14,106 nucleotides of DNA from a virus (Duplodnaviria; Heunggongvirae; Uroviricota; Caudoviricetes): IMG/VR virus record IMGVR_UViG_2563366844_000002, positions 1 through 14,106 of that record. The stretch is one strand, 5' to 3'. Both the position numbers and the translations under genes were made by a program. Of this stretch, positions 566 through 12,692 are shown piece after piece. A model generated the notes under the pieces. That model did no database searches. It was not told the origin of the DNA and was given only the letters and a program-made list of their open reading frames with translations. The number at the start of each line of letters is the position of its first letter. The stretch's first letter is position 1.

Positions 566-856
566 CTACCGCCGCAACCGTTCCGGCTTCTTCCACTGGT
601 AAGTATTTTTCGCGCTCTCCCTCCGTTGTTGAGAACGGCGACGGTATGCCAGCAACTCAAGAACTCTGGTTCGTATGTTGCGCATATCCACGCCGTTAAG
701 CTCAATACCGTCACGGCGCATTACCTCAGCCACCACACGCGTGTAATTTTCGGCTATCACGCTGTCCGGCTGTGTAGCCTGTTCGTCAGGCTGCTGACTG
801 ATTCCGGTAATGCGGCGAATTATTTTTAGTAGATCAGTTTCAGTCATTCTCGTCAT
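566..856 (-). CDS. Hypothetical 96-aa protein, last gene of the packaging operon
   Basis: Start ATG at 856-854 overlaps the TerL stop at 855-853 (ATGA overlap, translational coupling). No family recognised from the sequence. Confidence 0.5.
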   Translation of the reverse strand: MTRMTETDLLKIIRRITGISQQPDEQATQPDSVIAENYTRVVAEVMRRDGIELNGVDMRNIRTRVLELLAYRRRSQQRRESAKNTYQWKKPERLRR

Positions 857-2514
857 ACCCCATCAAACGCCGCAAGTCGCTCTTTGTGGCTGTCGCTCAT
901 ATCAAATGCAAATTCCTCATGCTCTGCCTGGAATGTGCCAAACGCCATCAGCGCCGCAACGCTCGGGTCTATCTTGTTGGATGATTTTTTCTTGTTCGGC
1001 TTGATATTGGCGTTCGCGTCACTCTGCATCACAACATTACTCATTGACCAGGCCAGCACCGGATCACCACGATGCACAATCACCTTCCGGTTAACAAAAA
1101 CTTCGAACGATTTCGCCGCCGGACTGAAACGAAGGTATGTTTGCGGGAACGGCTCCACCTCTAATCCTGCCCCCTGTAGCTGCGTCCTCAGGTGCGTGGC
1201 GTTCCATGTATCGAAGCCCACCAGCCTGATATTGAAATTCTCTGCATCCGCCATGATGTCATCACGGATACGGTCATAATCAATGCAGTCACCCGGTGTT
1301 GTGCGTATCCAGCCCGCCTTTACCCACTGGCGATAGATGGCGCGGTTTTTATTGGCGGGGTTCTGTAGCTGAAATTCCGGCAGATAGTGACGGGAAACCA
1401 GCATAATCTTTTTACCGACCGGAAAGGCATAGCACACGCTGGAAATATCGCTGGTTGATGATAAGTCCAGCCCCGCGTAGCACTCCTGCCCGTATAAATC
1501 CGCCTCCGCGAACGTTCCGGCGCACTCCGCCCATGCACCGTTACCCATCCACGGCGTAGCCCCCTGACACCAGATATTGAATCGCTTGGTGAGCATTTCC
1601 ACCCACTGCGACGGAATACCCCGCGCTTTCTGGATGGTTGAGGCCAGTTTTTCACGATCGACGGAAACATCGATATTTGGATTCGCCTTTATCCACATCG
1701 CCGGATCGTCAACCTCGCTTTCATCATCCAGCTCGTAAATCAGAACGAACATGGATTCGTTCATCTCTTCACCATCCAGTATCTGACAGCAATAGTCATA
1801 GTGTTGTTTACAGGCTGAAACAACGTTGCTCCCCGATGTGGTGATGGCAAATAACAGCCCCTCCGGACGCGCCCCCATCCCCAGCTCAAGTGCGGAATAA
1901 ACCCCGTTGTCTGGGTGCAGGTGATATTCATCCACAATGGCAAGACTCGGGTTTGTCCCCTCAATGGTTGCCGCTTTTGCTGCCAGTGGCTTTAACAGGC
2001 TGTTGGTTTTCGGGTGTATCACCTTGTGCGCCTGAATATTTACCCGCTTTCGTAACGGTCGGGATAAAAGGCACATCTGACGCGCATCATCAAACACGAT
2101 CCGCGCCTGATCACGACTCACGGCGGCGGTGTAAATATCCTGCTGCCCGTTTTCCATAACCAGAAACCAGTTAGCCAGGATAGCGGCGACCGTGGATTTG
2201 GCATTTTTTCGCGGTACTTCAATGAATGCGCTGGTGTATTTGCGCCGTCCGGTGGCCTTAACCTTAAAGCCCAGGATGCAGGCAAAGGCGAACTGCTGCC
2301 ACGGCTCCAGTTCAATGGGGCTACCGCGCATTGCGCCTTTTACGTGCGGGCACACCCGGGAAAAGGCAATAAACCGCTCCACGACCTCCGGATCGAACGT
2401 GTAAAGGGAGTTTTCAAGGTCAGAAAAATACCGTTTAACGGCCTGTTTCAGTCGTTTACAGGCCGTAATTTTGCCGTTTTTTACGCCTTCTGCGTACTCA
2501 TGCCAGGCGGTCAA
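853..2514 (-). CDS. terL: Phage terminase large subunit
   Basis: 553-aa ORF with the N-terminal ATPase pattern and overall layout typical of phage large terminases. The annotated start is a TTG at 2514-2512, preceded by GAGGAAGAGGA at SD distance and overlapping the TerS 3' end by 17 nt. Confidence 0.85.
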   Translation of the reverse strand: MTAWHEYAEGVKNGKITACKRLKQAVKRYFSDLENSLYTFDPEVVERFIAFSRVCPHVKGAMRGSPIELEPWQQFAFACILGFKVKATGRRKYTSAFIEVPRKNAKSTVAAILANWFLVMENGQQDIYTAAVSRDQARIVFDDARQMCLLSRPLRKRVNIQAHKVIHPKTNSLLKPLAAKAATIEGTNPSLAIVDEYHLHPDNGVYSALELGMGARPEGLLFAITTSGSNVVSACKQHYDYCCQILDGEEMNESMFVLIYELDDESEVDDPAMWIKANPNIDVSVDREKLASTIQKARGIPSQWVEMLTKRFNIWCQGATPWMGNGAWAECAGTFAEADLYGQECYAGLDLSSTSDISSVCYAFPVGKKIMLVSRHYLPEFQLQNPANKNRAIYRQWVKAGWIRTTPGDCIDYDRIRDDIMADAENFNIRLVGFDTWNATHLRTQLQGAGLEVEPFPQTYLRFSPAAKSFEVFVNRKVIVHRGDPVLAWSMSNVVMQSDANANIKPNKKKSSNKIDPSVAALMAFGTFQAEHEEFAFDMSDSHKERLAAFDGV

Positions 2515-2854
2515 GTTCGTCCTCTTCCTCTGTTTCCGGTGGATTTCTGCGACGGCTTACCGGGTCAAAACCCAGCAAAGAAGCCATTTTGATCATTATT
2601 CTTTCTGCGTCAGCCTTTGCGCTCAGTGCGGGGTTTCTGCTCTCGCTGCCCTGACTGTTAACAATGCTGAACCCGCGCGTCGCAAGGTCTTCGACGGCTT
2701 TGCGGTATATGGAGTAGTTAACACAATACAGTTCCAGATTGCTCCAGTCGGCGGGGGTAAGGTCTTCCCGCCCGGAAAGCTGGCGCGATTTTTCCTTCCA
2801 CTGCCTGACCGCGATTTCATCCAGGTAAGCGGGGGTTTTTGGTGGTCTTGCCAT
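2498..2854 (-). CDS. terS: Terminase small subunit (P27-family-like)
   Basis: From the internal ATG at 2854-2852 the product starts MARPPKTPAYLDE and carries the P27-type TerS pattern (LTPADW...LELYC..YS.YRKA...NPA...SLLGFDPVSRRR). The ORF-track extension up to 2995 looks non-coding. Confidence 0.75.
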   Translation of the reverse strand: MARPPKTPAYLDEIAVRQWKEKSRQLSGREDLTPADWSNLELYCVNYSIYRKAVEDLATRGFSIVNSQGSESRNPALSAKADAERIMIKMASLLGFDPVSRRRNPPETEEEDELDRLA

Positions 2855-2905
2855 GTTCTTTTTTCGCCCAATTATTTTCAAAAAAATTACCGTGCACAAA
2901 AATTT

Positions 2906-2965
2906 GAGGGGGCGGTCGGTGTCCGGCAGGGACGGTTTCGTCCTGAAAACCGCCCCCACCCCCTC
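2906..2965. other. GC-rich nested inverted repeat between HNH and terS; candidate cos/packaging site or structured element
   Basis: GGGGGCGGT at 2908-2916 pairs with ACCGCCCCC at 2949-2957. An inner hairpin GGACG-GTTT-CGTCC lies at 2930-2943, and extra GAGGGGG (2906-2912) / CCCCCTC (2959-2965) arms flank it. Sits in the 120-bp gap upstream of terS. Confidence 0.35.
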
Positions 2966-2973
2966 TGACGGCC

Positions 2974-3159
2974 TCACCAGCGATTGCGAAAACATTCCAT
3001 GACCTCGCGGTCACGGTCGGTTAATCGCTTCGCTGTGGTGCGTTTTGTGCGCCCTGTCCTGTTGGCTTTGTGCTCTGTCTCCTGTGTCTTCCATGTGTCA
3101 CGCTGCCTTATCAGTCCACGTATCAGCCTGGTTTGCTCCTGTTCAGTCATCATCGCCAT
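2974..3159 (-). CDS. Possible small basic ORF (about 61 aa) between HNH and terS
   Basis: Internal ATG codons at 3159, 3153 and 3150 lie just upstream of the HNH stop at 3145-3143. Product MAMMTEQEQTRLIRGLIRQRDTW... is highly basic. The upstream part of ORF 2974..3354 overlaps HNH in another frame and is not considered coding. Confidence 0.3.
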   Translation of the reverse strand: MAMMTEQEQTRLIRGLIRQRDTWKTQETEHKANRTGRTKRTTAKRLTDRDREVMECFRNRW

Positions 3160-3583
3160 ACATCCAGTCGTTACGGTGTGCCGCCCGTTCTTCCTGCTCG
3201 CGATACATGCCCGCTTTACGGTTTGCTTTCGTGGCTGGATCTTCTCGTGTCGTCTTACGGTTGTGGCACGTCTGGCACAATGCCTGGTGATTCCACTCAG
3301 GCCAGAAGAGAACATCACCGCCGCCATTGATGGGAATGATGTGATCCACCACAAGAGCTGGCGTATAAATCCCCTTAGCCAGACAACGCACGCATAACGG
3401 GTTTTTGCTCAGGTACAGGGCGCGGTATTTGTCCCACTGTCGGGAATACCCGCGCGCGCGGCGGTGTCCCCGTCTGGCATCCTCTGCACGCCATGCAGCC
3501 CGCCTGTGCTCTTCACACTTGCCGGACTTCACGCGCTTATTACAGCCAGGCTCAGTGCATCGCCTTAATGGTTGCCACGGCAT
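3143..3583 (-). CDS. HNH endonuclease (phage packaging-associated)
   Basis: Cys pairs near the N-terminus (CTEPGCN, CEEH) and an HNH core VVDHIIPINGGGDVLFWPEWNHQALCQTCHNRKT. Located just upstream of terS/terL, as in HK97-like packaging modules. Start overlaps the connector stop by 1 nt. Confidence 0.85.
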   Translation of the reverse strand: MPWQPLRRCTEPGCNKRVKSGKCEEHRRAAWRAEDARRGHRRARGYSRQWDKYRALYLSKNPLCVRCLAKGIYTPALVVDHIIPINGGGDVLFWPEWNHQALCQTCHNRKTTREDPATKANRKAGMYREQEERAAHRNDWMYGDDD

Positions 3584-3885
3584 CAGTACACCCCTACGTC
3601 ACGATAAACTGACCAGAGCGCAGAAATAGCCATAGGCAGTTCCGAGTGCTCCACTGGTGAAACCGCTTCCCGGTTCTCGTACAGGAAAGCGATGTACATC
3701 AGGCAACCAACACGCATTGCCGGGGTAAATTCCAGCCCGTCTTCAAAACGTTTCCCGATATGCTTCTGGCAGGCTTCCAGCGCCGCATCGGTATACATTT
3801 TCAGAAGTTCGCCTTCACCGGATAAATCATCATCAAGTCGAAGATGTGCCCTGACTTCATCAGGTGTAATTCTGGCTTCACTCAT
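3583..3885 (-). CDS. gp6-like head-tail connector protein
   Basis: From the internal ATG at 3885-3883 (preceded by AGGGAGAAAAG) the product starts MSEARITPDEVRAHLRLDDDLSGEGELLKMYTDAALEACQKHIG, which fits the gp6-like connector pattern. The portal stop at 3880-3878 is 2 nt upstream. Confidence 0.7.
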   Translation of the reverse strand: MSEARITPDEVRAHLRLDDDLSGEGELLKMYTDAALEACQKHIGKRFEDGLEFTPAMRVGCLMYIAFLYENREAVSPVEHSELPMAISALWSVYRDVGVY

Positions 3886-5092
3886 CTTTTCTCCCTTTAA
3901 TTTCCACAGTCTGTTTCCATGCCTGGCTGAACTCATCACCACCTTCACGCGGCGGCATACCCTCACGCTCACGGGCTTCGTTCGGATTCATGATCCCGTT
4001 CTTAATCCCTTTCTCATACGTGGCATAACGTTCGGTGGGTGTGGCGCGTAATAAATCGGCTGAATCAAACTCAACCAGATAACGGGTACCAGGTACGGGA
4101 GAAGCCACCAGCAAAGCGGCCTTGATTTGCTGTTCGAAGTTCGCTAGCCACGGGCGCATTGTCATGGTCAGAAACGCGCGGCTTGCCTCGCTGAAATTGC
4201 TGTAGGTGCTGTTGCTGTATTCCTGCAGAAAAATAGGCGATACGTTGAACATGCGGGCGATGTCTTCAATGGAGAAGCGACGGGAGGCCAGCCATTCCGC
4301 ATCCTGGTTACTCATTCCCAGTTGCCTGTAATCCATGCCCCCTTCAAGGATTGGCGTTTTTCCGGCATTTTTCGCCCCCTTGTAGCGTTCCAGAGCATCC
4401 AATGCCTGTTTACCTTTCACGCCGTCCAGCCATTCGCCTGACGTGATAATCCCTGCCGCCATCATGCCATCTTTCATAATGCTGGCTCCGTGACGCTGTT
4501 GAGCAAGGCCAAGCCCCAGCGCCTCACGGCAAATCGTGACGGGGGAACGCCCCAGAAAGCCATCATCCGAGGCATAGCGGAGATGCAAAACTTCTTCCTG
4601 TAAATACGTGCGCACCGTTCCTGTACAGGGTTCGGTGATGGTATAGCGGTATTTGTGTGCGCCTGTGCATTCCGGTACAACACACCCCGGCGCATAAGGA
4701 TGAAGTGATTTTGGCTGCCCGTCCTGCCCCCACTCAATAACCGCATAGGCGTTACCGTTCAGCAGGCAGTGACGCATCATTGTGCGTTTAAACTGGTAAG
4801 GTGTCTGGCACGAATTAGGCTGCTCATTCAGCAGAATATCTACCGGGTGACTGTCCAGCCATTCCCGCGCCTCCCTGCCCTTGTCATTACGTACCAGATA
4901 CAGATAACACGGCATCGTGGCCACCGCCTCAGCGATGACAGAAACCGCATTCATCACTGCAGGCAATGATTCAGCCGTCCCGGCAGAAACATATTCTCCG
5001 GATCCGGTATTCGGTACGCCGGACAGCGCCAGAAAATCATCAATGGACAGGTTACGCTGCTCGCTTTTTTTACGACTAAAAGGCCACCACAT
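3878..5092 (-). CDS. Phage portal protein (HK97-family-like)
   Basis: About 404 aa from the internal ATG at 5092-5090 (MWWPFSRKK...). Size and sequence are portal-like. The ORF-track start at 5182 would overlap the protease gene, so the internal start is preferred; the protease stop at 5096-5094 leaves a 1-nt gap. Confidence 0.85.
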   Translation of the reverse strand: MWWPFSRKKSEQRNLSIDDFLALSGVPNTGSGEYVSAGTAESLPAVMNAVSVIAEAVATMPCYLYLVRNDKGREAREWLDSHPVDILLNEQPNSCQTPYQFKRTMMRHCLLNGNAYAVIEWGQDGQPKSLHPYAPGCVVPECTGAHKYRYTITEPCTGTVRTYLQEEVLHLRYASDDGFLGRSPVTICREALGLGLAQQRHGASIMKDGMMAAGIITSGEWLDGVKGKQALDALERYKGAKNAGKTPILEGGMDYRQLGMSNQDAEWLASRRFSIEDIARMFNVSPIFLQEYSNSTYSNFSEASRAFLTMTMRPWLANFEQQIKAALLVASPVPGTRYLVEFDSADLLRATPTERYATYEKGIKNGIMNPNEAREREGMPPREGGDEFSQAWKQTVEIKGRKDE

Positions 5093-5093
5093 A

Positions 5094-5654
5094 TCACAAC
5101 CCCGCCAGCTCAGACCAGCGATGACGATTATTTCCTGTCGGACGTAATTCAGGGTGCTGTGCAAACAACGAACGGTGGGCAATCTCCACGCCAGATTCTG
5201 GATAAGCAGGCATCGACGTTATTGTGATTTCACGGAGTTCAGCGGCGGTTACGGTACGCAGATACGGTTTTTGCGCGATACTCCACTCCTCGCATAATGC
5301 GCGAAAACCAAAGCTCATTCCTGTAATGTCGCCACGCTCCACCAGCGTAAGCACATCTTTTCCAAGCTGGGTATCCGGCGGTGTCAGTTCAAAACGTAAC
5401 CCGGTGTTATCCTCAGTCAGTACCAGAGTGCCGGATTTGGTGCGCCCCAGCAGTTGGGTATAGTCATGCTCATACAGGCAGCGCACATCATTACCCGTCG
5501 CCAGATAGTCAGCAAAAGCCCCCGGCGTGAACTGTTCGCGGAATTCGTCCCAGATAATTTCTGAAAGGCTGTTCCAGCGAACGGCATACCCCACCAGCTT
5601 TTTATTGCTGGCGGTCAGTTCAGATGTGCGGATTTCAAAATCGGTGTTTTTCAT
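5094..5654 (-). CDS. Prohead maturation protease (HK97-family, S78-like)
   Basis: 186 aa with a GMSFGF-containing core typical of HK97 prohead proteases. Lies between the major capsid and portal genes. Confidence 0.85.
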   Translation of the reverse strand: MKNTDFEIRTSELTASNKKLVGYAVRWNSLSEIIWDEFREQFTPGAFADYLATGNDVRCLYEHDYTQLLGRTKSGTLVLTEDNTGLRFELTPPDTQLGKDVLTLVERGDITGMSFGFRALCEEWSIAQKPYLRTVTAAELREITITSMPAYPESGVEIAHRSLFAQHPELRPTGNNRHRWSELAGL

Positions 5655-5673
5655 CGGTGTACTCCATAAAACT

Positions 5674-5695
5674 GAAAAAGGAGGCCGCAGCCTCC
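5674..5695 (-). terminator. Intrinsic terminator/attenuator hairpin between capsid and protease genes
   Basis: Stem AGGAGGC (5678-5684) / GCCTCCT (5689-5695) with a 4-nt loop. On the minus-strand transcript it is followed by UUUU-CAG-UUUU, directly after the capsid stop. Confidence 0.45.
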
Positions 5696-5708
5696 TCCTT
5701 ACTCATGA

Positions 5709-6878
5709 CTAGCCAGCTTTCATTTCCAGAATTTTGATGGCGTTTGAATCCACCACACCACCGCCCAGATATTTATCCGTGTGGACCTTGTAGAATCCGG
5801 GTTCAGTAATGTTGTCCGGTCGGGTGCGAATCCCTGTTACATGATCAACGATGAAATAACCACGACTGAAATCTCCAACCGCTAGCGGTGCTTTTCCTGT
5901 GCCGATGTCCGGCATGGACTCCAGGCAGTAAACAGGACGACCAAGCAACATATCCGGCGCACCTTCTTTAAGGCTGTCGCGCCAGATATAATCGCCGTTC
6001 TCATTTTTCAGCTTCTGTAGTGCCCCTGCCGTGCCCGAGTTCATCACCCAGACGGCATTTTTGCGGTATTTCGCTTTCAGCTTGTAGAGAATGTCGATCA
6101 GTTCGTCCGCTGTAATGGCGGTTCCACTTGCCGCTACCATTTTTTCAATGGTGCCAAAAGCGCGGGTTTTGTCACTGGTCGCCGCACGGGTGTAAGCCAT
6201 GAAGCCTTTCGGCTTGCCGTTACCGTCGCCATTAACAAAATCATCCTCTTCGGTGCTGGCGAACGTGTCGGCAATTTCGGAGGATAACCAGCCCAGAATA
6301 TCCACCTCTGAAAAATCCAGGATTTCCTGCGTGGTTTTCGGGTAGGCGTAGATCGGATTCAGCTTGATGGTTACGCGTTCAATTTTCGGGGTGTTGGTTT
6401 CACTGCGTGCGCTGCCTTCTGTGCCTCGTCCTACAGTTGCGCCGCCAGTGGAAACCAGTTTCTGAAACTCATTTGATTTTGCGGTCTTCACGGTCGCGAT
6501 CACGCGCATAACACTGTCATCCTGTAGCTGGCGCATGACTTCGCGATCGAGCTCAGGAATTACGGTATATCCACCATCCCTGCCGCTGTCAGTGCTGGTG
6601 GACAGTGATCGCACATCTCCGGTTACGATGTAGTTACGCAATTCATCAGATGATAATTTCTGGATGCCCGTTCCTGGCTTGCTGCGTTCTTCATCAGCCA
6701 CAGACTCGAGGCGGGAAATTTCTGTGTCGAGGGAATCGGCTTTTGCACGCAGTTCATCAAACTGTTTGCCCTCGTCATCGTTCAGGCTGCGGTTTTCACT
6801 GTCGGCTTTTTCCAGCAGGGATCGCATCTGGTTTTTCAGGGCGTTTTTTTGCTGGCGGAGTTCGATTAATTTCTTCAT
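5709..6878 (-). CDS. Major capsid protein (HK97 fold family)
   Basis: 389 aa with an N-terminal coiled-coil/delta-like region (MKKLIELRQQKNALKNQMRSLLEKADSE...) followed by an HK97-type capsid body. It is the first gene of the packaging operon. Confidence 0.9.
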   Translation of the reverse strand: MKKLIELRQQKNALKNQMRSLLEKADSENRSLNDDEGKQFDELRAKADSLDTEISRLESVADEERSKPGTGIQKLSSDELRNYIVTGDVRSLSTSTDSGRDGGYTVIPELDREVMRQLQDDSVMRVIATVKTAKSNEFQKLVSTGGATVGRGTEGSARSETNTPKIERVTIKLNPIYAYPKTTQEILDFSEVDILGWLSSEIADTFASTEEDDFVNGDGNGKPKGFMAYTRAATSDKTRAFGTIEKMVAASGTAITADELIDILYKLKAKYRKNAVWVMNSGTAGALQKLKNENGDYIWRDSLKEGAPDMLLGRPVYCLESMPDIGTGKAPLAVGDFSRGYFIVDHVTGIRTRPDNITEPGFYKVHTDKYLGGGVVDSNAIKILEMKAG

Positions 6879-7027
6879 GAAGGTTTTCTCGTATTGGTTA
6901 AGATTCAGGACGTGAAACCAACACGGAGGGAGCGCCGCCCGACACTCTCGGCATCTCGCAGATCAACCCGGCATCACGCAGGGGGTCAGGCGGCATTGTG
7001 GCGGCTCACGTCTGAGTGCCACACGCC

Positions 7028-7055
7028 AACATATACATAAAAATCAGTATGTAAA
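7028..7055 (-). promoter_or_regulatory. Candidate sigma70-type promoter of the capsid/packaging operon
   Basis: On the minus strand, TTTACA (plus 7050-7055), a 16-nt spacer, then TATGTT (plus 7028-7033). Sits just downstream of the terminator at 7114-7141 and about 140 nt upstream of the capsid ATG. Confidence 0.3.
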
Positions 7056-7071
7056 CATCAGCCAGAATCAC

Positions 7072-7098
7072 CGAACAATCTGGAACAACCGCGAACAA
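7072..7098 (-). promoter_or_regulatory. Three phased direct repeats (GAACAA core, 10-bp period) upstream of the candidate capsid-operon promoter; putative activator binding site
   Basis: Plus-strand CGAACAA at 7072-7078, GGAACAA at 7082-7088 and CGAACAA at 7092-7098. On the minus strand these read TTGTTCG / TTGTTCC / TTGTTCG, ending 17 bp upstream of the -35 hexamer. Confidence 0.4.
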
Positions 7099-7113
7099 AT
7101 AATTTACAAAACC

Positions 7114-7141
7114 TGAAAAAAGACCCGGGAAAAATCCGGGC
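7114..7141 (-). terminator. Rho-independent terminator at the end of the replication/early operon
   Basis: GC stem CCCGG (7124-7128) / CCGGG (7136-7140) with a 7-nt loop. On the minus strand it is followed by UCUUUUUU (reverse complement of 7114-7123), 10 nt after the stop of the 82-aa ORF. Confidence 0.5.
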
Positions 7142-7151
7142 CTTTATCGCT

Positions 7152-7400
7152 TTACTGTTTCACGGGATCGCGCATTCTGCGCCTTATTTTCCACAAATAT
7201 TCGATCATCGCTTCCACCTGCTCACGGTTGGTTGCGAAAATTTCCCCGGTCAGTGAGCTGCGCAGAAAATCATGATGATCCACAACAAATAACGCATCGG
7301 AAGAAAGCAGACGGCGATATTTTTTTGCTGTCGTGGTTTCCAGATCATCAATACCATGAAACTTTTTATGTTGCTGAACTTCTTCAAATGTCACTGGCAT
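7152..7400 (-). CDS. Hypothetical 82-aa protein
   Basis: ATG at 7400-7398 preceded by AGGGGGA at SD distance. Lies 17 nt downstream of the SSB stop. No family recognised. Confidence 0.55.
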   Translation of the reverse strand: MPVTFEEVQQHKKFHGIDDLETTTAKKYRRLLSSDALFVVDHHDFLRSSLTGEIFATNREQVEAMIEYLWKIRRRMRDPVKQ

Positions 7401-7417: not shown

Positions 7418-7840
7418 CTAAAAGGGTATGTTATCCCCGTATGGATCATCATTCCCCGCCTGTTGCTTAGCCCTATTTAGAGCGTCAGTAGCCTGACCCT
7501 GCTGGCCTTTTTTGCCACTAGGTCGCGCCGTTCTGGCACTGATTACGCTGTCTGCGATAACCTGCCAGCCCTGCCGCGTTTCCCCGTTCTGGCCTGTCCA
7601 CTGGCTTACCTGCATGTTACCCGCCACGCTCACCAGCTCGCCTTTGTGGTGTTTTGCCAGTGCGTCGGCCTGTCTGCCAAACGCCAGGACGGATAACCAC
7701 ATCGTCGCCTGTCCGTCATCTGCCTGATTGCACGGCAGGGGGACCGCCATGCTTGCCATAGCCATTTGTGTGCCCTTGCTGGTGGTCTTTAACTGCGGGT
7801 CAGCCACCAGCCGCCCGTAAGCTGCTATCTGTGCTGTCAT
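7418..7840 (-). CDS. ssb: Single-stranded DNA-binding protein (SSB-like OB fold)
   Basis: 140 aa; the N-terminal pattern (AAYGRLVADPQLK ... WLSVLAFGRQADALAKHHKGELVSVAGNMQVSQWTGQNGETRQGWQVIADSV) parallels the bacterial SSB OB fold. C-terminal DDPYGDNIPF resembles the conserved acidic D-I-P-F tail. Confidence 0.75.
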   Translation of the reverse strand: MTAQIAAYGRLVADPQLKTTSKGTQMAMASMAVPLPCNQADDGQATMWLSVLAFGRQADALAKHHKGELVSVAGNMQVSQWTGQNGETRQGWQVIADSVISARTARPSGKKGQQGQATDALNRAKQQAGNDDPYGDNIPF

Positions 7841-8051: not shown

Positions 8052-10175
8052 TTAATCTTCTGCCTCAGGCTGGAACATCATCACGTAAAAAACATGCTGC
8101 TTACCCCCAATTTTGCCGAGCGCCTTTTTCTTGTAACGGCGATCGTTACCCGCTTCCAGCATTCCGGCAGCACTCAACGCGCGGGCAAAGTGGGACGGGT
8201 TAAATCCCTGTGCGATCTCCCCCTCAAACACATGAGGAAACGTGTAAAAACGGAACTCATCATCTTCATTTCTGATACTCCCCTTTCTGTATCCGGCAAG
8301 GTCTTTAATCGGTAAATCACGTTCATCACTGTTTGGGTAAGGAAGGTATCGACTGAACCCGAACGACGACAAAAACGCCTCAGCCTGTTCAACCATCTGT
8401 TTAAATTCCCTGTTACCCGTGCCGAACTCCTTCACCCAGGCATTAAAGTTATGCTGTATTGCGTCCCGGCATTCCTGCGCGGCCCAGCCAGTTACATGAC
8501 CGGAAAGCACAAGCGCAGCCTCCAGTATCGCGAAACGTTCCCCCACGCGGTGGACCTGCTCGCCGTAGCTCTCCGGTATCAGGTTGCGCCACCGTTCGCG
8601 GCATTCCCTTACCGTATCCTTTGCCTCCTGCTGGTGGTCTGCCAGCCATTTAACCCATTCACGACCCGCCGCCCCGTGATTTTCTGTCCAGGCATCTTTT
8701 AACGCGTCTGCGTGCGCCTTTCCGGTGCTGTATTCGTGAAATTGCGTGGCTTTTTCCATCGGAACGTTAAGCAGGCGGACAAGCTGCCCCGCTTTGACTT
8801 TTATCCCCTCCGTTTTGAGGAATGTCTCAACGTCCATTTCTCCGGTGCTGATTGCCACCGTGCGCCAGTGTTTTATCTCCCGGTTGCCGCCGTCCTTCGC
8901 CCCCTGTAATTTCCCGGAGCCGTTAAACAACGTATAGGCTGACGTGGACACCTCCCGCGCGTTTCCGGCCTGACCTATTTCATCCAGGGGTAACAGCCCG
9001 TCGTTGTGTGCCTCTGCCTCGTTGGCGATACCTAACGCCGTTCCGTACCAGGTAAGCCGTTGTGCGTCCGGCTCTCCCCATAAACTTGATGCGATGTTCT
9101 GCGTGGTGGTTTTCCCTGCCGATGACTGTTCGAAAAGATGTACCCCGAAGCCGTCAGCACCAACAAGGCCAATCAAAGGTGCTGACAGTGACGTGGCAAC
9201 ACCCAGCATCATGGACGGATTGCCACCAGCCAGCCGCGCCACGCTGTCACGCCAGCCCTCCGCCGTACCCGCAACCGAATAGCCATTAACAGCGGCACTT
9301 TTTCCGGTAAACAGGATCGGTTTTTCAGAATCACCAATGATTGAACCGTCCGGCATGATGTACGCGCCAAAATGCCAGCCTGTTGTTGTGCTTAGCTGCC
9401 ATTCCTCATGGCTTCCGCTTAACTGCATCCAGTCAGCCAGGATAGCCCTGTATTTGCCATTTGTTGTCACGTTCAGCCCGTGATCTTTAAGCAACCGCCA
9501 GCCGTCACGGTCGCCAATGCCACCACACGGGATCGCCATTGTGATGACTTCATGGTTTGCTAATTTTTTCCAGCGCATCACGCGGTAATGTTCTTTACCG
9601 ATCGTCCCCGTTCCCAGTAGTTCAAGCGGAGAACATAACCACGTCTCAGGCCGGATAATTTCGCCTGACTGCTTATCCACTTTGGGCGTTACCCAGAAAA
9701 CACCATCGACGCGACTTTCAACGCGGGGCTTTAATTCATCATCCTGATAGCATGGCTCTTTTTTCTTTACAGGCAGTTCAACTACCTTTTTCTTTTCCGC
9801 CAGCTCTGCCCGTTCACGTTCCAGATATTCACGCCAGTTCTCCCGTTTCTGGCTGTGCATTCCTTCAGGGTAATAATCAGCATCCCTGACACCTGCCGCT
9901 GCCAGTTTCTGCCCGATGGTATTAACAACCCCCGGACGCAATAACCCCGCCTGATAGAGACGCACGCGATAGCGCCCGTCCGGTACGATTTGCAGCTTAT
10001 CCAGTTCGGATAACTGCTGCTCACCAAGCCACACAGGAGGCACGTTATCGCCAGCCAGTCGCCCGTCCTGTTCCTGCCACTGCTTCGCATGTGCCCACGC
10101 ATCACTACCCGCAAAAATGATGACTTCCGTCATTTTGTCACGCGGCTGGTGTTTTAAATTTGGCGCTTTTTTCAT
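8052..10175 (-). CDS. Replication protein, primase/helicase-like with P-loop NTPase (Pri-Rep-like)
   Basis: About 707 aa from the ATG at 10175-10173 (preceded by GGAGAGAG). Walker A-like motif SSAGKTT in the central region and an N-terminal region that looks toprim/primase-like. ATGA overlap with the upstream 99-aa ORF. Confidence 0.75.
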   Translation of the reverse strand: MKKAPNLKHQPRDKMTEVIIFAGSDAWAHAKQWQEQDGRLAGDNVPPVWLGEQQLSELDKLQIVPDGRYRVRLYQAGLLRPGVVNTIGQKLAAAGVRDADYYPEGMHSQKRENWREYLERERAELAEKKKVVELPVKKKEPCYQDDELKPRVESRVDGVFWVTPKVDKQSGEIIRPETWLCSPLELLGTGTIGKEHYRVMRWKKLANHEVITMAIPCGGIGDRDGWRLLKDHGLNVTTNGKYRAILADWMQLSGSHEEWQLSTTTGWHFGAYIMPDGSIIGDSEKPILFTGKSAAVNGYSVAGTAEGWRDSVARLAGGNPSMMLGVATSLSAPLIGLVGADGFGVHLFEQSSAGKTTTQNIASSLWGEPDAQRLTWYGTALGIANEAEAHNDGLLPLDEIGQAGNAREVSTSAYTLFNGSGKLQGAKDGGNREIKHWRTVAISTGEMDVETFLKTEGIKVKAGQLVRLLNVPMEKATQFHEYSTGKAHADALKDAWTENHGAAGREWVKWLADHQQEAKDTVRECRERWRNLIPESYGEQVHRVGERFAILEAALVLSGHVTGWAAQECRDAIQHNFNAWVKEFGTGNREFKQMVEQAEAFLSSFGFSRYLPYPNSDERDLPIKDLAGYRKGSIRNEDDEFRFYTFPHVFEGEIAQGFNPSHFARALSAAGMLEAGNDRRYKKKALGKIGGKQHVFYVMMFQPEAED

Positions 10176-10471
10176 TTCTGCTCTCTCCACGCGGCAATCA
10201 TGTTTTTCAGTTCCTGTAGTTTTTTATCAACATCCATACATGACACATGGTTATTTCTGGAAAGCGGGATTTCCCGCCGGAATCTGCAAATAAAGATCTC
10301 CACGTTCAGCGAACTATGAAATGAATAGCCATCACGAATAAAATACACACGGTCAAACATCAGTCCTTTTACCGTTACTCTGTTACCGTTCTTATCCAGA
10401 TAAATAGCGCCGGGGATAATTTTGGGGTGTGCATAACCGCTGGCAGTCAAGCCAGATAAATATGTTCTCAT
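10172..10471 (-). CDS. Hypothetical 99-aa basic protein (AT-rich gene)
   Basis: ATG at 10471-10469 with GGGGA upstream. Stop overlaps the primase start (ATGA). Local GC is visibly lower than flanking genes. No family recognised. Confidence 0.55.
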   Translation of the reverse strand: MRTYLSGLTASGYAHPKIIPGAIYLDKNGNRVTVKGLMFDRVYFIRDGYSFHSSLNVEIFICRFRREIPLSRNNHVSCMDVDKKLQELKNMIAAWREQK

Positions 10472-10477
10472 GATTAT

Positions 10478-10798
10478 TTATCCCCGATTTGAATCAGTAT
10501 TCGCTTTCTTTATGGCATTTAATGCATCTGCAGCATTTTCAATGGTGCACCGTAACGAAATATCAAACTGCCCAAGCATTGCCAGTAACAAACCGATATT
10601 ACCCATATCAATGCGCATAGCCTTTTCGTCATAGTCCTCATTTTCTGACGCATGCCACATCAGGCTACCAATTGACGCAATACCCATTGATATATTGTCA
10701 GTAGCCCCATACGCAGCGGAATAAACCTTTTTAGCAATATCATGCTCACAGTTAAAATGCGGATTAATCAGGTACTGGTAATTTGACATATCAGGCAT
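10478..10798 (-). CDS. Hypothetical 106-aa acidic protein (AT-rich gene)
   Basis: ATG at 10798-10796 preceded by AGGGGG at SD distance; 8-nt overlap with the upstream small ORF. No family recognised. Confidence 0.55.
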   Translation of the reverse strand: MPDMSNYQYLINPHFNCEHDIAKKVYSAAYGATDNISMGIASIGSLMWHASENEDYDEKAMRIDMGNIGLLLAMLGQFDISLRCTIENAADALNAIKKANTDSNRG

Positions 10799-10994
10799 GG
10801 CACACCCCCTGACGAATACGGGCGGCGAATACCATCACGCAGCCAGCCGGGGATTGCTGGCGTGCTTCCTGTTCGCTGGTGGCCTCAATGGTAATCACGC
10901 GCGGTTGTGCCGTGCTCAGGGCGATAAAACGCCAGATGTATTTATTCAGGTTGTGCGAGTCCCGCCCTTGCGGGTGTGTGGTATGATTTAACAT
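10791..10994 (-). CDS. Possible 67-aa protein (3' portion of the long ORF 10791..11456)
   Basis: Internal ATG at 10994-10992 is preceded by GAGG with a 5-nt spacer. Its stop overlaps the start of the 106-aa ORF. The upstream part of the 221-aa ORF is rejected (see noticed_but_rejected). Confidence 0.35.
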   Translation of the reverse strand: MLNHTTHPQGRDSHNLNKYIWRFIALSTAQPRVITIEATSEQEARQQSPAGCVMVFAARIRQGVCHA

Positions 10995-11029
10995 AGCTAC
11001 CTCGATACTGTTGCTATCGTTGGTGGTTA

Positions 11030-11064
11030 GAAGCCCGGTTAGTGTTCCCGCACTGCCGGGCTTC
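11030..11064. promoter_or_regulatory. Inverted repeat GAAGCCCGG-N17-CCGGGCTTC in the divergent regulatory region
   Basis: 9-bp perfect arms at 11030-11038 and 11056-11064. No U-run on either side, so it is more likely a protein-binding site or RNA structure than a terminator. Confidence 0.3.
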
Positions 11065-11094
11065 GCTGTATTTAATGGTTGCGTATTTTTAATG

Positions 11095-11461: not shown

Positions 11462-11665
11462 CTATGCTGCCTTACCTGAATTAACTCGGTCACGGTTTTG
11501 CACCCAGTCCATAACTTCGGAAAGCAACCAACCTACAGAACGCCCACCAAGATTACGGCGAGACGGAAAGCTCCCTTTTTTCTCCAGTTCATAGCGAGTG
11601 GTACGGCTAACCCCGGTTAACTTACTGCATTCAGCCTCACGGATTATGCGGTCAAATTGAGCCAT
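11462..11665 (-). CDS. alpA: AlpA-family transcriptional regulator
   Basis: From the ATG at 11665-11663 the 67-aa product MAQFDRIIREAECSKLTGVSRTTRYELEKKGSFPSRRNLGGRSVGWLLSEVMDWVQNR has the typical AlpA HTH pattern. Start is preceded by GGGGGGAGTG. Confidence 0.8.
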   Translation of the reverse strand: MAQFDRIIREAECSKLTGVSRTTRYELEKKGSFPSRRNLGGRSVGWLLSEVMDWVQNRDRVNSGKAA

Positions 11666-11675
11666 CACTCCCCCC

Positions 11676-11864
11676 TTACACCGTCTGCGTTCTGCGAGTG
11701 GATGCAAGATAAGCATCGAGATCAGTGCGCATATACAGCACTTTGCGCCCCAGCTTATGAAAAGGGATTTTTACCTTGCCAGTACACGCCCAGTTAGCAA
11801 GAGTCTGGACACTTACCCCCAAATGCTCGGCAGCTTCTTTGCGGGTCATCTTTTCTAAATGCAT
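11676..11864 (-). CDS. Excisionase-family (MerR-like HTH) DNA-binding protein
   Basis: KEAAEHLGVSVQTLANWACTGKVKIPFHKLGRKVLYMRTDLDAYLAS fits the excisionase/HTH_17 pattern. ATG at 11864 is preceded by GGTGA; alternative starts are GTG at 11873 or ATG at 11849. Confidence 0.7.
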   Translation of the reverse strand: MHLEKMTRKEAAEHLGVSVQTLANWACTGKVKIPFHKLGRKVLYMRTDLDAYLASTRRTQTV

Positions 11865-11936: not shown

Positions 11937-11966
11937 AAACCAGATACAAAATCGCATATCTGGTTT
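11937..11966. other. 10-bp-arm inverted repeat AAACCAGATA-N10-TATCTGGTTT (candidate terminator for the int-cargo transcript, or operator)
   Basis: Arms at 11937-11946 and 11957-11966. On the minus strand it is followed by UUUCCUGUCUU. Sits 40 bp downstream of the AT-rich cargo ORF and upstream of the excisionase-family gene. Confidence 0.3.
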
Positions 11967-12005: not shown

Positions 12006-12692
12006 TTATTCTTTGTCTCCAATAACTAACTTAAAATCCCTGTTTTTTTGCGGGGATTTTGGATTCATCCCCGACTCCTTAAGCCATCTCTCTATAGTCC
12101 CAACTACAGGGACATCATTCCATTTATTGCGTAAGTGCGCGTATATCTCTGCGGATAGCCCGGGTAAACTGGCATTAGGGTATTTTTTCCAAGTGTTACA
12201 AGCTATAGATAACGCTGTTGATTTATGCCTGTTTGTTTTTCCTTTCTTTGCTTTACTACGGTCTTCACTGATAATTTTCTTTACATTAGCTATATCACGT
12301 ACTGATTTTAATAAATTCTCCGACACTAAAATCGCATATCTTTCACGTAACTGATCTGCAAGTCTGTTGAAACCAAGAACTTCAAATATAATGGCAGCTT
12401 TCAAAATATCATTGAATTCTGAATATGCACTATTAAATTTTTTATCAAAATCATCTCCATATCCGGCACATACAGAAATATTAACCTTTAAATCCTTATT
12501 TTCTATCTCTGACGATAATGATAATCTTTCCTCCAGAGACATTTTAGATGGTGTGATATTTGCCATATCGCATATCGTTTTTTTTACAAAAGAAGACGCC
12601 AGTTCATCTCTAATATAATCTGCAATAGTATTCATATCCTTCGCATCATTATGGTCAAATTCTATTGCAGCAATGATTTTATTTTCTGACAT
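12006..12692 (-). CDS. Hypothetical 228-aa protein, strongly AT-rich (putative accessory/cargo gene)
   Basis: ATG at 12692-12690 preceded by GGTGG; start overlaps the integrase stop by 14 nt. GC is markedly lower than the rest of the element by eye. No family recognised; the C-terminal third may be helix-rich/HTH-like (weak impression). Confidence 0.7.
   Translation of the reverse strand: MSENKIIAAIEFDHNDAKDMNTIADYIRDELASSFVKKTICDMANITPSKMSLEERLSLSSEIENKDLKVNISVCAGYGDDFDKKFNSAYSEFNDILKAAIIFEVLGFNRLADQLRERYAILVSENLLKSVRDIANVKKIISEDRSKAKKGKTNRHKSTALSIACNTWKKYPNASLPGLSAEIYAHLRNKWNDVPVVGTIERWLKESGMNPKSPQKNRDFKLVIGDKE

What the first reader, a model, noticed from the sequence alone, without database searches (positions are those of the whole stretch)
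5094..6878. Capsid-first gene order with an attenuator hairpin after the capsid gene
Transcription order is capsid, protease, portal, connector, HNH, TerS, TerL, the reverse of the canonical HK97 layout. A GC stem-loop with a U-run (5674-5695) follows the capsid stop before the protease RBS. This would give high capsid transcript levels with reduced read-through into the protease, portal and terminase genes. The inverted order may be a signature of this satellite family rather than a captured phage head module.
Basis: partly seen in the sequence, partly recalled or inferred. Interest (0 to 1): 0.45.

Follow-up and report, generated by a model that had tools for sequence, protein, structure and literature searches.

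The report
Capsid-first satellite operon with leaky terminator
This is the head-and-packaging operon of a capsid-forming phage satellite (cf-PICI) of E. coli: its capsid-first gene order is already published, and the hairpin after the capsid gene is real, conserved across the family and looks like a leaky terminator that would favour capsid over the downstream genes, which is an ordinary phage-style device and is untested here.

Summary
On the minus strand the genes run capsid, prohead protease, portal, Ad1 connector, HNH, TerS, TerL. A GC stem-loop with a U-run (5700..5675, core 5695..5680) lies 8 nt after the capsid stop and 20 nt before the protease ATG.

The gene order is not new. Alqurainy et al. 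state it as the conserved layout of proteobacterial cf-PICIs. I found it in 159 of 159 related loci and in none of four true phage relatives.

The hairpin is not mentioned in the cf-PICI papers I could search. It sits at the same junction in 80 of 86 distinct junction sequences, about 100 times denser than in coding DNA. The stem hardly varies, so covariation support is weak. Similar hairpins follow the capsid gene in canonical-order phages (ST64B, phiP27, 16-3), so it is not tied to the inverted order.

Most likely it is a partial intrinsic terminator and 3' stabiliser that enriches capsid mRNA (about 240 capsid copies against 12 portal copies). This is inferred; there is no transcript data.

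The more novel finding lies just outside the given coordinates. A roughly 145-nt structured leader RNA (7024..6879) follows a promoter-like site, shows strong covariation, and has no Rfam match.

The parts
7119..7145 (-). Intrinsic-terminator-like hairpin AAAGGCCCGGA-UUUUU-CCCGGGUCUUU plus U6. It follows the 82-aa gene (7152-7400) and closes the replication-module transcript.
   Evidence: My scan of the coding strand gives dG -15.2 and tail UUUUUUCA. Weak Rfam hits here match only the terminator parts of leader families.
7073..7110 (-). Block TTTGTAAATTATTTG plus three TTGTTC repeats (7097-7092, 7088-7083, 7078-7073) upstream of the promoter-like site. Candidate activator-binding region (inferred).
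   Evidence: Sequence. The same block occurs in the O157 island L285 at about 8236-8280.
7028..7055 (-). Sigma-70 promoter-like site, TTTACA-16 nt-TATGTT. Putative late (capsid operon) promoter.
   Evidence: Consensus scan. A TAnnnT hexamer sits at a fixed 5 nt before hairpin 1 in 134 distinct upstream segments, and TTTAC[AT] sits 16 nt further up in 65 of them. No transcription start has been mapped.
6879..7024 (-). Conserved structured 5' leader of the capsid transcript. H1 is 7022-6998 (GUGGC-A-CUCA-GACG-UGAG-CC-GCCAC). H2 is 6994-6934. A C-rich linker lies at 6933-6925. The RBS-proximal hairpin H3 is about 6920-6882. A possible pseudoknot pairs GACGUG (7010-7005) with CACGUC (6914-6909).
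   Evidence: H1 is 100% identical in 22 of 80 genome loci from four families. On a MAFFT alignment 94% of cells are paired, against 34-47% with slid partners; 13 pairs show changes on both sides, and 0 of 500 shuffles reach this. The pseudoknot is 100% paired. The covariance-model hits (E 1e-21 to 1e-38) end at a capsid ATG, including a second copy in L045 that sits upstream of a gene-sized stretch after the first capsid gene; there were no hits in the phages searched. No Rfam family matches.
5709..6878 (-). HK97-fold major capsid protein gene (389 aa), the first gene of the operon.
   Evidence: PF05065 E 1.4e-71; phrog_10.
5666..5700 (-). Post-capsid intrinsic-terminator-like hairpin. Extended stem 5700-5675, GC core GGAGGC/GCCUCC 5695-5680, loop UGCG, then U5-CAG-U4 down to 5666.
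   Evidence: The position is conserved in 80 of 86 distinct junctions. Covariance model R1 finds it at the orthologous place across about 964 kb of loci.
5662..5665 (-). Shine-Dalgarno GGAG of the protease gene, 7 nt before its ATG.
   Evidence: Sequence. GGAG is conserved in the junction alignment A2.
5094..5654 (-). HK97-family prohead serine protease gene (186 aa).
   Evidence: PF04586 E 6e-46; phrog_80.
3878..5092 (-). Portal protein gene. It starts 1 nt after the protease stop.
   Evidence: PF04860 E 2e-92. PGAP annotation of the near-identical L001.
3583..3885 (-). Head-tail adaptor Ad1 gene. It overlaps the portal stop by 8 nt.
   Evidence: PF05135; phrog_40 E 6e-29.
3143..3583 (-). HNH endonuclease gene.
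   Evidence: PF01844; phrog_144.
2498..2854 (-). Small terminase (P27 family). It follows a 119-nt gap (2855-2973) that is the probable cos region.
   Evidence: PF05119. L001 annotation. The phiP27 cos site lies between HNH and TerS.
853..2514 (-). Large terminase gene. It overlaps the TerS stop.
   Evidence: PF03354 and PF20441; phrog_9 E 2e-180.

Best explanation
The window is a capsid-forming PICI (cf-PICI) of E. coli. Its morphogenesis and packaging genes form one late transcription unit that starts at a promoter-like site near 7055-7028 and runs capsid first.

The hairpin 8 nt after the capsid stop is a partial (leaky) Rho-independent terminator. A fraction of polymerases stop at about 5675-5666. 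That would give a roughly 1.35-kb monocistronic capsid mRNA bounded by a 5'-terminal stem-loop (H1) and a 3' hairpin, which should make it stable. The remaining polymerases read through into protease, portal, Ad1, HNH, TerS and TerL. These genes are packed with overlaps or 1-nt gaps, apart from a 119-nt gap before TerS, and have no promoter-like site of their own.

The result would be a step-down in expression matching demand: about 235-240 capsid subunits per particle against 12 portal and 12 adaptor subunits and catalytic amounts of terminase.

Shown: gene identities and order; the hairpin, its terminator shape, and its positional conservation. Inferred: the promoter and start site, termination in vivo, leakiness, and the effect on stoichiometry.
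For: - Terminator anatomy: an 11-bp stem with a 6-bp GC core, a UGCG loop closed by C-G, then U5-CAG-U4, in the sense orientation only.
- Position: it lies in one of only two non-coding gaps in the operon.
- Conservation: 80 of 86 distinct capsid-protease junctions (146 of 153 loci) from Enterobacteriaceae, Erwiniaceae, Yersiniaceae, Morganellaceae, Orbaceae and Pasteurellaceae carry a GC-closed hairpin 1-13 nt after the stop. Median dG is -12.5 kcal/mol. The 8 nt after the core hold at least 5 U in 50 junctions and 3-4 U in 28.
- Density: 15.4 terminator-like sites per kb in that gap, against 0.14-0.19 per kb in coding sequence.
- Loops and flanks vary (UUCG, UACG, UGCG, GAAA, 5-8-nt loops) while the arms stay paired.
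- The prototype-type O157 island has it too.
- No promoter-like site lies on the coding strand between the capsid start and the end of TerL. All these genes are essential for cf-PICI transfer, so read-through must occur.
- Stoichiometry: the EcCIEDL933 capsid is T=4 with 240 capsid protein positions.
[quoted passage not shown] Leaky terminators are widely used by phages to balance expression.
Against: - There is no RNA-seq, Term-seq or reporter data for any member of the family.
- The stem is almost invariant (GGGGC/GCCCC). Only 2 of 7 pairs show changes on both sides, so covariation neither proves nor disproves an RNA role.
- Six junction types lack the hairpin altogether (gaps of 0-18 nt) in what look like intact operons, so it is dispensable.
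- About a third of the hairpins have only 3-4 U and may terminate poorly.
- Canonical-order phages have comparable hairpins after their capsid genes. There they cannot lower portal or terminase expression, which suggests that stabilisation may be the ancestral role.
- If the conserved leader, or AlpA, makes the polymerase terminator-resistant, there would be no attenuation.
Confidence: 0.5

Rival explanations
1. The hairpin is mainly an mRNA-stability element. Polymerase mostly reads through, the polycistronic RNA is cleaved downstream, and the hairpin blocks 3'-to-5' exonucleases. Capsid mRNA would then outlive the distal part, as described for REP and other hairpins after the first gene of some operons (my own knowledge).
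For: - GC hairpins also follow the capsid gene in ST64B, phiP27 and 16-3, where the capsid is not the first gene and termination could not lower portal or terminase levels.
- 28 of 80 family hairpins have only 3-4 U after the core.
- A 5'-terminal stem-loop (H1) at the putative start fits a design built for stability.
Against: - The window's own element has a full U5...U4 tract and an A-rich 5' flank, like a working terminator.
- 50 of 80 hairpins have at least 5 U.
- The two roles are not exclusive.
Confidence: 0.2
2. The hairpin is an insulator that matters only when the island is uninduced. After induction the polymerase is made terminator-resistant, either by the conserved leader RNA acting like HK022 put RNA or by an AlpA- or Q-type factor. 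It then ignores the hairpin, and the hairpin does not set stoichiometry.
For: - A conserved two-hairpin RNA begins at the putative +1 with only 0-3 unpaired nt between H1 and H2. This recalls put RNA, which is about 70 nt, has two stem-loops and lies just downstream of the promoter.
- The island encodes an AlpA-family protein (PF05930). A distant AlpA homologue in Pseudomonas is an antiterminator (my own knowledge).
- Strong terminators also precede the late promoter.
Against: - The leader model finds nothing in the HK022 region scanned (bases 20000-32000, where I expected the put sites to lie but did not confirm it).
- Many family members (most Xenorhabdus, Pasteurellaceae, Orbaceae) keep the post-capsid hairpin but lack this leader.
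- No cf-PICI paper reports antitermination.
- H3 and the pseudoknot touch the ribosome-binding region, which points to translational control instead.
Confidence: 0.12
3. The hairpin is a passenger. It was inherited with the capsid gene from an HK97-like ancestor, has no role connected to the capsid-first order, and persists because it does no harm.
For: - Similar GGGGCGC...GCGCCCC-type hairpins follow the capsid gene in phage relatives.
- The hairpin has been lost in six junction types.
- The stem shows little covariation.
Against: - The arms are kept intact over lineages whose capsid proteins are only 61-76% identical, while loops and flanks diverge.
- The roughly 100-fold enrichment over coding DNA argues for purifying selection.
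Confidence: 0.1
4. The palindrome acts at the DNA level, as a protein-binding site or recombination hotspot, and not as RNA.
For: - GGGGC-N4-8-GCCCC is a DNA palindrome.
- Insertions land just after it in L042, L045 and L146.
Against: - The spacer length varies from 3 to 8 nt, which is unlike an operator.
- G.U pairs occur in the stem.
- The U-run is on the sense side only, in every lineage.
Confidence: 0.03

Closest known systems
EcCIEDL933 and other proteobacterial cf-PICIs (Alqurainy et al., bioRxiv 10.1101/2022.09.08.507074; SatelliteFinder, PMC10085698)
   Same: - Same element type: int, alpA and a DUF927 primase, then capsid-protease-portal-connector-HNH-terS-terL, with no tail or lysis genes.
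- The paper states this order as the conserved organisation.
- The O157 island L285 has the same post-capsid hairpin and an H1/H2 leader.
   Different: - The capsid gene is only about 67% identical in DNA to the O157 type.
- The island sits at a different site, cspD/clpS in L001 against roxA/phoQ.
- It lacks the head-closure (Hc1-like) gene.
- It has an 82-aa gene where the O157 island has a PerC-family gene.
- The published papers do not mention a terminator, hairpin or promoter.
T7 terminator T-phi after the major capsid gene 10
   Same: [quoted passage not shown]
   Different: - T-phi acts on T7 RNA polymerase, and gene 10 is not the first gene of its unit.
- Here the host polymerase is presumed.
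- There is no sequence relationship.
HK97-like phages with related capsids (ST64B, phiP27, Rhizobium phage 16-3)
   Same: - HK97-fold capsid (33-37% identity for ST64B and phiP27), S78 protease, portal, Ad1, HNH, and a cos site next to TerS.
- A GC-rich hairpin directly after the capsid stop.
   Different: - Canonical order TerS-TerL-portal-protease-capsid-Ad1, plus tail and lysis genes.
- No leader RNA hit.
Major-subunit-first operons with a partial terminator (pap/fim pilus operons; filamentous phage gene VIII) - from my own knowledge, not checked here
   Same: The most abundant structural subunit is encoded promoter-proximally and followed by a hairpin or terminator, so that minor components are made from read-through transcripts.
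   Different: These are unrelated genes and organismal contexts. The resemblance is in design logic only.
HK022 put RNA (comparison for the leader, not for the hairpin)
   Same: A cis-acting structured RNA made of two adjacent stem-loops just downstream of a promoter.
   Different: - No similarity detected by the covariance model in the HK022 stretch scanned (bases 20000-32000), which I expected but did not confirm to hold the put sites.
- The leader is twice as long.
- It has a third hairpin at the ribosome-binding site and a possible pseudoknot.
- Its function is untested.

Membership tests
cf-PICI (capsid-forming phage-inducible chromosomal island) | Integrase plus AlpA-type regulator plus primase/replicase module at one end | tested here: met
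   Integrase (PF00589 and Arm-DNA-bind_3) 12679-14106. AlpA (PF05930, E 6e-17) 11462-11716. DUF927 primase-like protein 8052-10190.
cf-PICI (capsid-forming phage-inducible chromosomal island) | Own capsid, protease, portal, head-tail connector(s), HNH, TerS and TerL | tested here: met
   All are found by Pfam and PHROGs. Only one connector (Ad1) is present. The Hc1-like gene found in most relatives is absent. That gives 10 of the 11 SatelliteFinder core components, i.e. 'Type B'.
cf-PICI (capsid-forming phage-inducible chromosomal island) | No tail, holin or lysis genes; satellite size (10-16 kb) | tested here: met
   In the near-identical L001 the island spans about 13 kb between cspD/yljB and clpS, with no tail or lysis annotation. 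IMG/VR contigs carrying this capsid are mostly 10-18 kb.
cf-PICI (capsid-forming phage-inducible chromosomal island) | Proteobacterial layout: capsid-protease-portal-connectors first, then hnh-terS-terL | tested here: met
   Window. 159 of 159 related loci have the protease directly downstream of the capsid gene. Wherever the sequence reached far enough, the rest of the order was the same. Definition taken.
cf-PICI (capsid-forming phage-inducible chromosomal island) | Induction by a helper phage, formation of small capsids, and use of helper tails | not testable with these tools
   Needs experiments. These properties were shown only for EcCIEDL933 and a few relatives.
Rho-independent (intrinsic) terminator | GC-rich stem of at least 5 bp with a 3-8-nt loop | tested here: met
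   11 pairs (6-bp GC core) with loop UGCG.
Rho-independent (intrinsic) terminator | U-rich tract immediately 3' of the stem, on the sense strand | tested here: met
   UUUUUCAGUUUU on the minus (sense) strand. The other strand has no T-run after the stem.
Rho-independent (intrinsic) terminator | Releases RNA polymerase; a transcript 3' end lies in the U-tract | not testable with these tools
   No transcript data are available. The papers I searched are silent on this.
Conserved RNA structure (post-capsid hairpin) | Compensatory base changes that keep the pairs | tested here: inconclusive
   98% of cells are paired, but only 2 of 7 pairs have changes on both sides (5 cells), and 3 pairs never vary. 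The alignment was fitted to the model and contains a few off-target rows.
Known RNA families (Rfam 15) for the leader 7024-6879 | Match to any curated covariance model | tested here: not met
   No hit on the leader at E up to 10.
HK022 put-type antiterminator RNA (for the leader) | Two stem-loops right after a promoter, and similarity to putL/putR | tested here: inconclusive
   The two adjacent stem-loops at the putative +1 are present. The model gave no hit in HK022 bases 20000-32000, where I expected but did not confirm the put sites to lie. Antitermination activity cannot be tested here.

The most novel reading that the evidence does not exclude
The capsid gene of Enterobacterales cf-PICIs may sit in an RNA-controlled expression cassette.

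A previously undescribed, strongly covarying 5' leader of about 145 nt lies between the late promoter-like site and the capsid gene. It has an invariant H1 with a GACG loop, a variable but always paired H2, a hairpin at the ribosome-binding site, and a likely pseudoknot. H1 is present in 172 of 5426 complete E. coli genomes and in many other genera.

This leader may act in cis to decide how much capsid is made and how many polymerases pass the post-capsid terminator. It could work as a factor-independent antiterminator, or as a translational operator that senses unassembled capsid protein. Leader and terminator would then form a tunable stoichiometry device specific to these satellites.
Probability: 0.2. 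Interest if true: 0.7.

Novelty: new member of a known kind. Interest (0 to 1): 0.3.

Why it matters
cf-PICIs build their own small capsids and move between species on borrowed tails. How they time and balance about 240 capsid subunits against a dozen portal subunits has not been addressed in the papers I could search.

A family-wide terminator-like hairpin after a promoter-proximal capsid gene gives a simple, directly testable answer. It also gives a handle for engineering, because changing hairpin strength should change particle yield.

The element itself is a textbook device, so the finding as posed is modest. The conserved leader RNA upstream is the part that could teach something new about satellite late-gene control.

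Tried and rejected
- Covariation of the post-capsid hairpin. MAFFT misaligned the variable loops (A2). A covariance-model alignment (R1, A4) showed a nearly invariant stem, so covariation cannot carry the argument.
- Rfam. Nothing matched the hairpin or the leader. There was a weak symR-like hit elsewhere, and terminator-only partial hits at 7093-7160.
- Sigma-54 promoter reading of H1 (TGGCAC...). The GG-N10-GC spacing does not fit; rejected by inspection.
- put RNA homology. The leader model gave no hit in HK022 bases 20000-32000.
- Similarity of hyp82 to the PerC-family protein at the same position in the O157 island. None found.
- Literature. No paper pairs PICI AlpA with antitermination. 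The H1 sequence string is not in the library. A CP-933C search was badly framed and gave nothing useful.
- Linking terminator strength to presence of the leader. Pasteurellaceae lack the leader yet have U6 tracts, so there is no clear correlation.
- A broader survey of gene order in distant capsid relatives through IMG/VR. I prepared it (A7) and dropped it, because the tool would mainly return ST64B-like phages.
- Larger IMG/VR contigs (25-58 kb) with this capsid. I did not inspect them for tail genes. They are 98-99% identical to the window, and in L001 this island is flanked by chromosomal genes, so I took them to be over-extended prophage calls.
Full report
**What is in the window**

All long genes are on the minus strand. 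Pfam and PHROGs identify them as follows:
- a tyrosine integrase (12679-14106, cut by the window end)
- an AlpA-family regulator (11462-11716)
- a DUF4222 protein
- a DUF927 primase-like protein (8052-10190)
- SSB (7418-7840)
- an 82-aa protein of unknown function (7152-7400)
- the major capsid protein (5709-6878)
- an S78 prohead protease (5094-5654)
- portal (3878-5092)
- the Ad1 head-tail adaptor (3583-3885)
- HNH endonuclease (3143-3583)
- a small ORF
- TerS (2498-2854)
- TerL (853-2514)
- a 96-aa protein

A 99.8% identical copy lies in E. coli 23CRST027 between cspD/yljB and clpS, spans about 13 kb, and has no tail or lysis genes. By content, size and layout this is a capsid-forming PICI. 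It has 10 of the 11 SatelliteFinder core components; the head-closure gene is missing.

**Checking the observation**

The hairpin is also as described. On the minus strand 5700..5675 reads AAGGAGGAGGC-UGCG-GCCUCCUUUUU and is followed by CAGUUUUAU. The capsid stop is 8 nt upstream. The protease SD (GGAG, 5665-5662) and ATG (5654) follow. The spacer folds at -19.8 kcal/mol (z -2.7), and the hairpin alone at -16.6 kcal/mol.

Terminator-like matches in general are no commoner than in shuffled sequence (22 against 16.5). My own scan of the coding strand finds only three strong ones, each in an intergenic gap just after a stop codon:
- after the 228-aa accessory gene (11966..11937)
- after the 82-aa gene (7145..7119)
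- after the capsid gene

**The gene order is known and satellite-specific**

I fetched 80 genome loci from Enterobacteriaceae, Erwiniaceae, Yersiniaceae, Morganellaceae, Orbaceae and Pasteurellaceae, 80 IMG/VR loci and an O157:H7 island of the EcCIEDL933 type. In 159 of 159 loci the protease lies directly downstream of the capsid gene. Wherever the sequence reached far enough, the rest of the order was the same.

In the phage collection, the four records whose capsid is more than 60% identical to the window's all show the satellite layout. Two are satellite-sized (vB_KppS-Ant and Pmp8). One is a 3.8-kb fragment. One is a 106-kb record that holds such a segment, and I did not inspect it further.

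The nearest true phages have the canonical order TerS-TerL-portal-protease-capsid-Ad1. These are ST64B and phiP27 for the capsid (33-37% identity), and Rhizobium 16-3 and Bacillus Athena for the protease (42-51%).

The claim is correct but already published. It is also not a full reversal. Capsid-protease-portal and Hc1-Ad1 are each reversed, while HNH-TerS-TerL are not.

**The hairpin across the family**

- 80 of 86 distinct capsid-protease junction sequences (146 of 153 loci) hold a GC-closed hairpin. It starts 1-13 nt after the stop, and the median dG is -12.5 kcal/mol.
- The 8 nt after the GC core contain at least 5 U in 50 junctions and 3-4 U in 28.
- The usual form is (A)AGGGGC-loop-GCCCCUU(U). 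Loops include UUCG, UACG, UGCG and GAAA, or run 5-8 nt.
- The window's GGAGGC/GCCUCC is the only A-U variant at that stem position.
- Proteus islands have a longer stem.
- With a threshold of at least 4 U, the gap holds 15.4 sites per kb, against 0.14-0.19 per kb in coding sequence.
- A covariance model built on 18 junctions finds the element at the orthologous position in most of the loci across 964 kb, with a handful of other terminators elsewhere.
- Formal covariation is weak because the stem barely varies: 98% of cells paired, and 2 of 7 pairs with changes on both sides.
- Six junction types have no hairpin (gaps of 0-18 nt), so it is dispensable.
- The O157 island has AAGGGGC-UUAAAA-GCCCCUUU-AGUGUUUU.
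- None of the cf-PICI papers I could search mentions a terminator, hairpin or promoter.

**The hairpin is not tied to the inverted order**

ST64B, phiP27 and 16-3 all carry a GC-rich hairpin directly after their capsid genes. In phiP27 there are two, one preceded by U8. Athena has none. A post-capsid hairpin therefore looks like a common accessory of HK97-type capsid genes that travelled with the gene. What differs in the satellites is what lies downstream of it.

**How it most likely works**

The promoter scan finds no promoter-like site on the coding strand between the capsid start and the end of TerL. The downstream genes overlap or are 1 nt apart, except for a 119-nt gap before TerS that is probably cos; phiP27 has its cos site there. 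All of these genes are needed for cf-PICI transfer. Transcription must therefore pass the hairpin, and a terminator there can only be partial.

The EcCIEDL933 capsid is T=4 with 240 capsid protein positions, one penton being replaced by the portal. A step-down after the capsid gene matches that demand.

T7 T-phi, immediately after gene 10, is the classic precedent. Leaky terminators are widely used by phages.

My weights:
- 0.5 for a leaky terminator that also stabilises the 3' end
- 0.2 for stabilisation alone
- 0.12 for an insulator that is bypassed by antitermination after induction
- 0.1 for an inherited passenger
- 0.03 for a DNA-level site

None of these can be separated without transcript data.

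**Upstream of the capsid gene (outside the given coordinates)**

The 82-aa gene ends with a strong terminator (7145..7119, dG -15.2, U6). After it come:
- a block with three TTGTTC repeats, shared with the O157 island
- a promoter-like TTTACA-16-TATGTT (7055..7028)
- a leader of about 145 nt before the capsid ATG

The first 25 nt of that leader (GTGGCACTCAGACGTGAGCCGCCAC, 7022..6998) are 100% identical in 22 of 80 genome loci from four families, although the flanks diverge. Its central 22 nt occur in at least 120 IMG/VR contigs. In 114 of the 116 loci analysed the match lies 90-129 nt before a capsid homologue; the other two are cut by a contig end. The 25-nt block (queried with short flanks) is present in 172 of 5426 complete E. 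coli genomes and is never annotated.

A TAnnnT hexamer lies at a fixed 5 nt before this block in 134 distinct upstream segments. That places the likely transcription start at the foot of the hairpin.

On a plain MAFFT alignment of 22 leaders, three helices are supported (H1, the base of H2, and H3 next to the start codon). 94% of cells are paired, against 34-47% with slid partners. 13 pairs carry changes on both sides (45 cells), and 0 of 500 shuffles reach this.

The H1 loop and 3' side (GACGUG) can pair with CACGUC beside H3. This pairing is 100% kept, with one compensatory change (GACGGG/CCCGUC) and two G.U variants.

The O157 island keeps the GACG loop with three compensatory stem pairs, an H2, and a GCGUC partner.

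The leader model's strong hits all end at a capsid ATG, apart from a second copy inside the L045 insertion (described under other points). It hits nothing in ST64B, phiP27, 16-3, Athena or the HK022 stretch I scanned (bases 20000-32000). Rfam has no match.

Most Xenorhabdus, Pasteurellaceae and Orbaceae islands lack this leader.

I take it to be a real cis-acting RNA of unknown role. A 5'-terminal stabiliser or translational control is more likely than put-like antitermination. It matters for the finding in two ways. It shows that the capsid gene heads its own transcription unit. And if it were an antiterminator, it would cancel the proposed attenuation.

**Verdict**

The gene-order part is already known. 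The hairpin is a new but ordinary member of a known kind: a partial terminator or stabiliser after a major capsid gene. Its function is inferred only. The leader RNA is the item most worth following up.

**Other points seen on the way**

- L045 appears to have two tandem capsid genes. A second leader copy inside the 1.9-kb insertion precedes a gene-sized stretch that I did not translate.
- Insertions land between the hairpin and the protease start in L042, L045 and L146.
- The capsid family occurs in 531 of 5426 complete E. coli genomes.

Noticed in passing
window 6879-7024 (minus strand); also L285 8326-8493 and the capsid-proximal end of many loci: A conserved, strongly covarying 5' leader RNA of about 145 nt lies upstream of the capsid gene. 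It has an invariant H1 with a GACG loop, a variable but paired H2, a C-rich linker, a hairpin (H3) at the ribosome-binding site, and a possible pseudoknot. It has no Rfam match, is never annotated, and H1 occurs in 172 of 5426 E. coli genomes.
   Followed up: partly
window 7028-7145 (minus strand): A strong intrinsic terminator follows the 82-aa gene. It is directly followed by TTTGTAAATTATTTG, three TTGTTC repeats about 10 nt apart, and a promoter-like TTTACA-16-TATGTT. The repeat block is shared with the O157 island (L285 about 8236-8280). It is a candidate late-promoter control region.
   Followed up: partly
window 7152-7400 (minus strand) against L285 7577-7849: The gene after SSB is an 82-aa protein of unknown function (phrog_1957) in the window. 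In the EcCIEDL933-type island the gene after SSB is a PerC-family regulator, with one further small gene before the capsid leader. The two proteins show no detectable similarity. Either could be the late activator.
   Followed up: partly
L045 1489-4560 (Xenorhabdus kozodoii): This locus appears to have two tandem capsid genes. The first gene with its hairpin is followed by a second, Enterobacteriaceae-type leader (3219-3364), a gene-sized stretch that I did not translate, a second hairpin (4518-4548), and then the protease gene.
   Followed up: no
L042 (856 nt), L146 (583 nt), L045 (1.9 kb): Extra DNA is inserted exactly between the post-capsid hairpin and the protease start, in the manner of a moron insertion site next to a terminator.
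   Followed up: no
window 3878-3885: The island lacks the head-closure (Hc1-like) gene that most relatives and the EcCIEDL933 type carry between portal and Ad1. Here the portal and Ad1 genes overlap by 8 nt. The same short form occurs in several other loci, for example L002, L011, L015, L017 and L060.
   Followed up: partly
window 10995-11067 (+ strand): A weak symR-like Rfam hit (34.9 bits against a gathering score of 61, E 0.0017) starts at the base next to the start codon of the Icd-like gene (10791-10994) and reads away from it on the opposite strand. It may be a divergently transcribed small RNA, or a chance match.
   Followed up: no
window 2855-2973: Apart from the capsid-protease spacer, this 119-nt stretch between the small ORF after HNH and TerS is the only non-coding gap in the operon. 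It is probably the cos region, by analogy with phiP27, whose annotated cos site lies between HNH and TerS.
   Followed up: no
window 5680-5700: The window's hairpin pairs a strong Shine-Dalgarno-like run (UAAGGAGGAGG) with an anti-SD-like run (CCUCCUU). Other family members use GGGGC/GCCCC instead, so this is probably incidental. It could still titrate ribosomes or affect restart at the protease gene.
   Followed up: no
phage collection records LR881103.1, OR544139.1, OR850982.1, PQ569648.1: Four records deposited as phages match the window's capsid and protease at over 60% identity. Two are cf-PICI-sized satellites with the capsid-first order (vB_KppS-Ant 16.5 kb, Pmp8 15.3 kb). OR850982.1 is a 3.8-kb fragment. 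PQ569648.1 is a 106-kb record that contains such a segment near its end.
   Followed up: partly
window 6879-6895: The capsid gene is the most highly demanded product, yet it has no clear Shine-Dalgarno sequence (ACGAGAAAACCUUCAUG here; ACGGAAACCACUCCAUG in most relatives). Its start region lies at the 3' arm of a hairpin, which suggests regulated or unconventional translation initiation.
   Followed up: no
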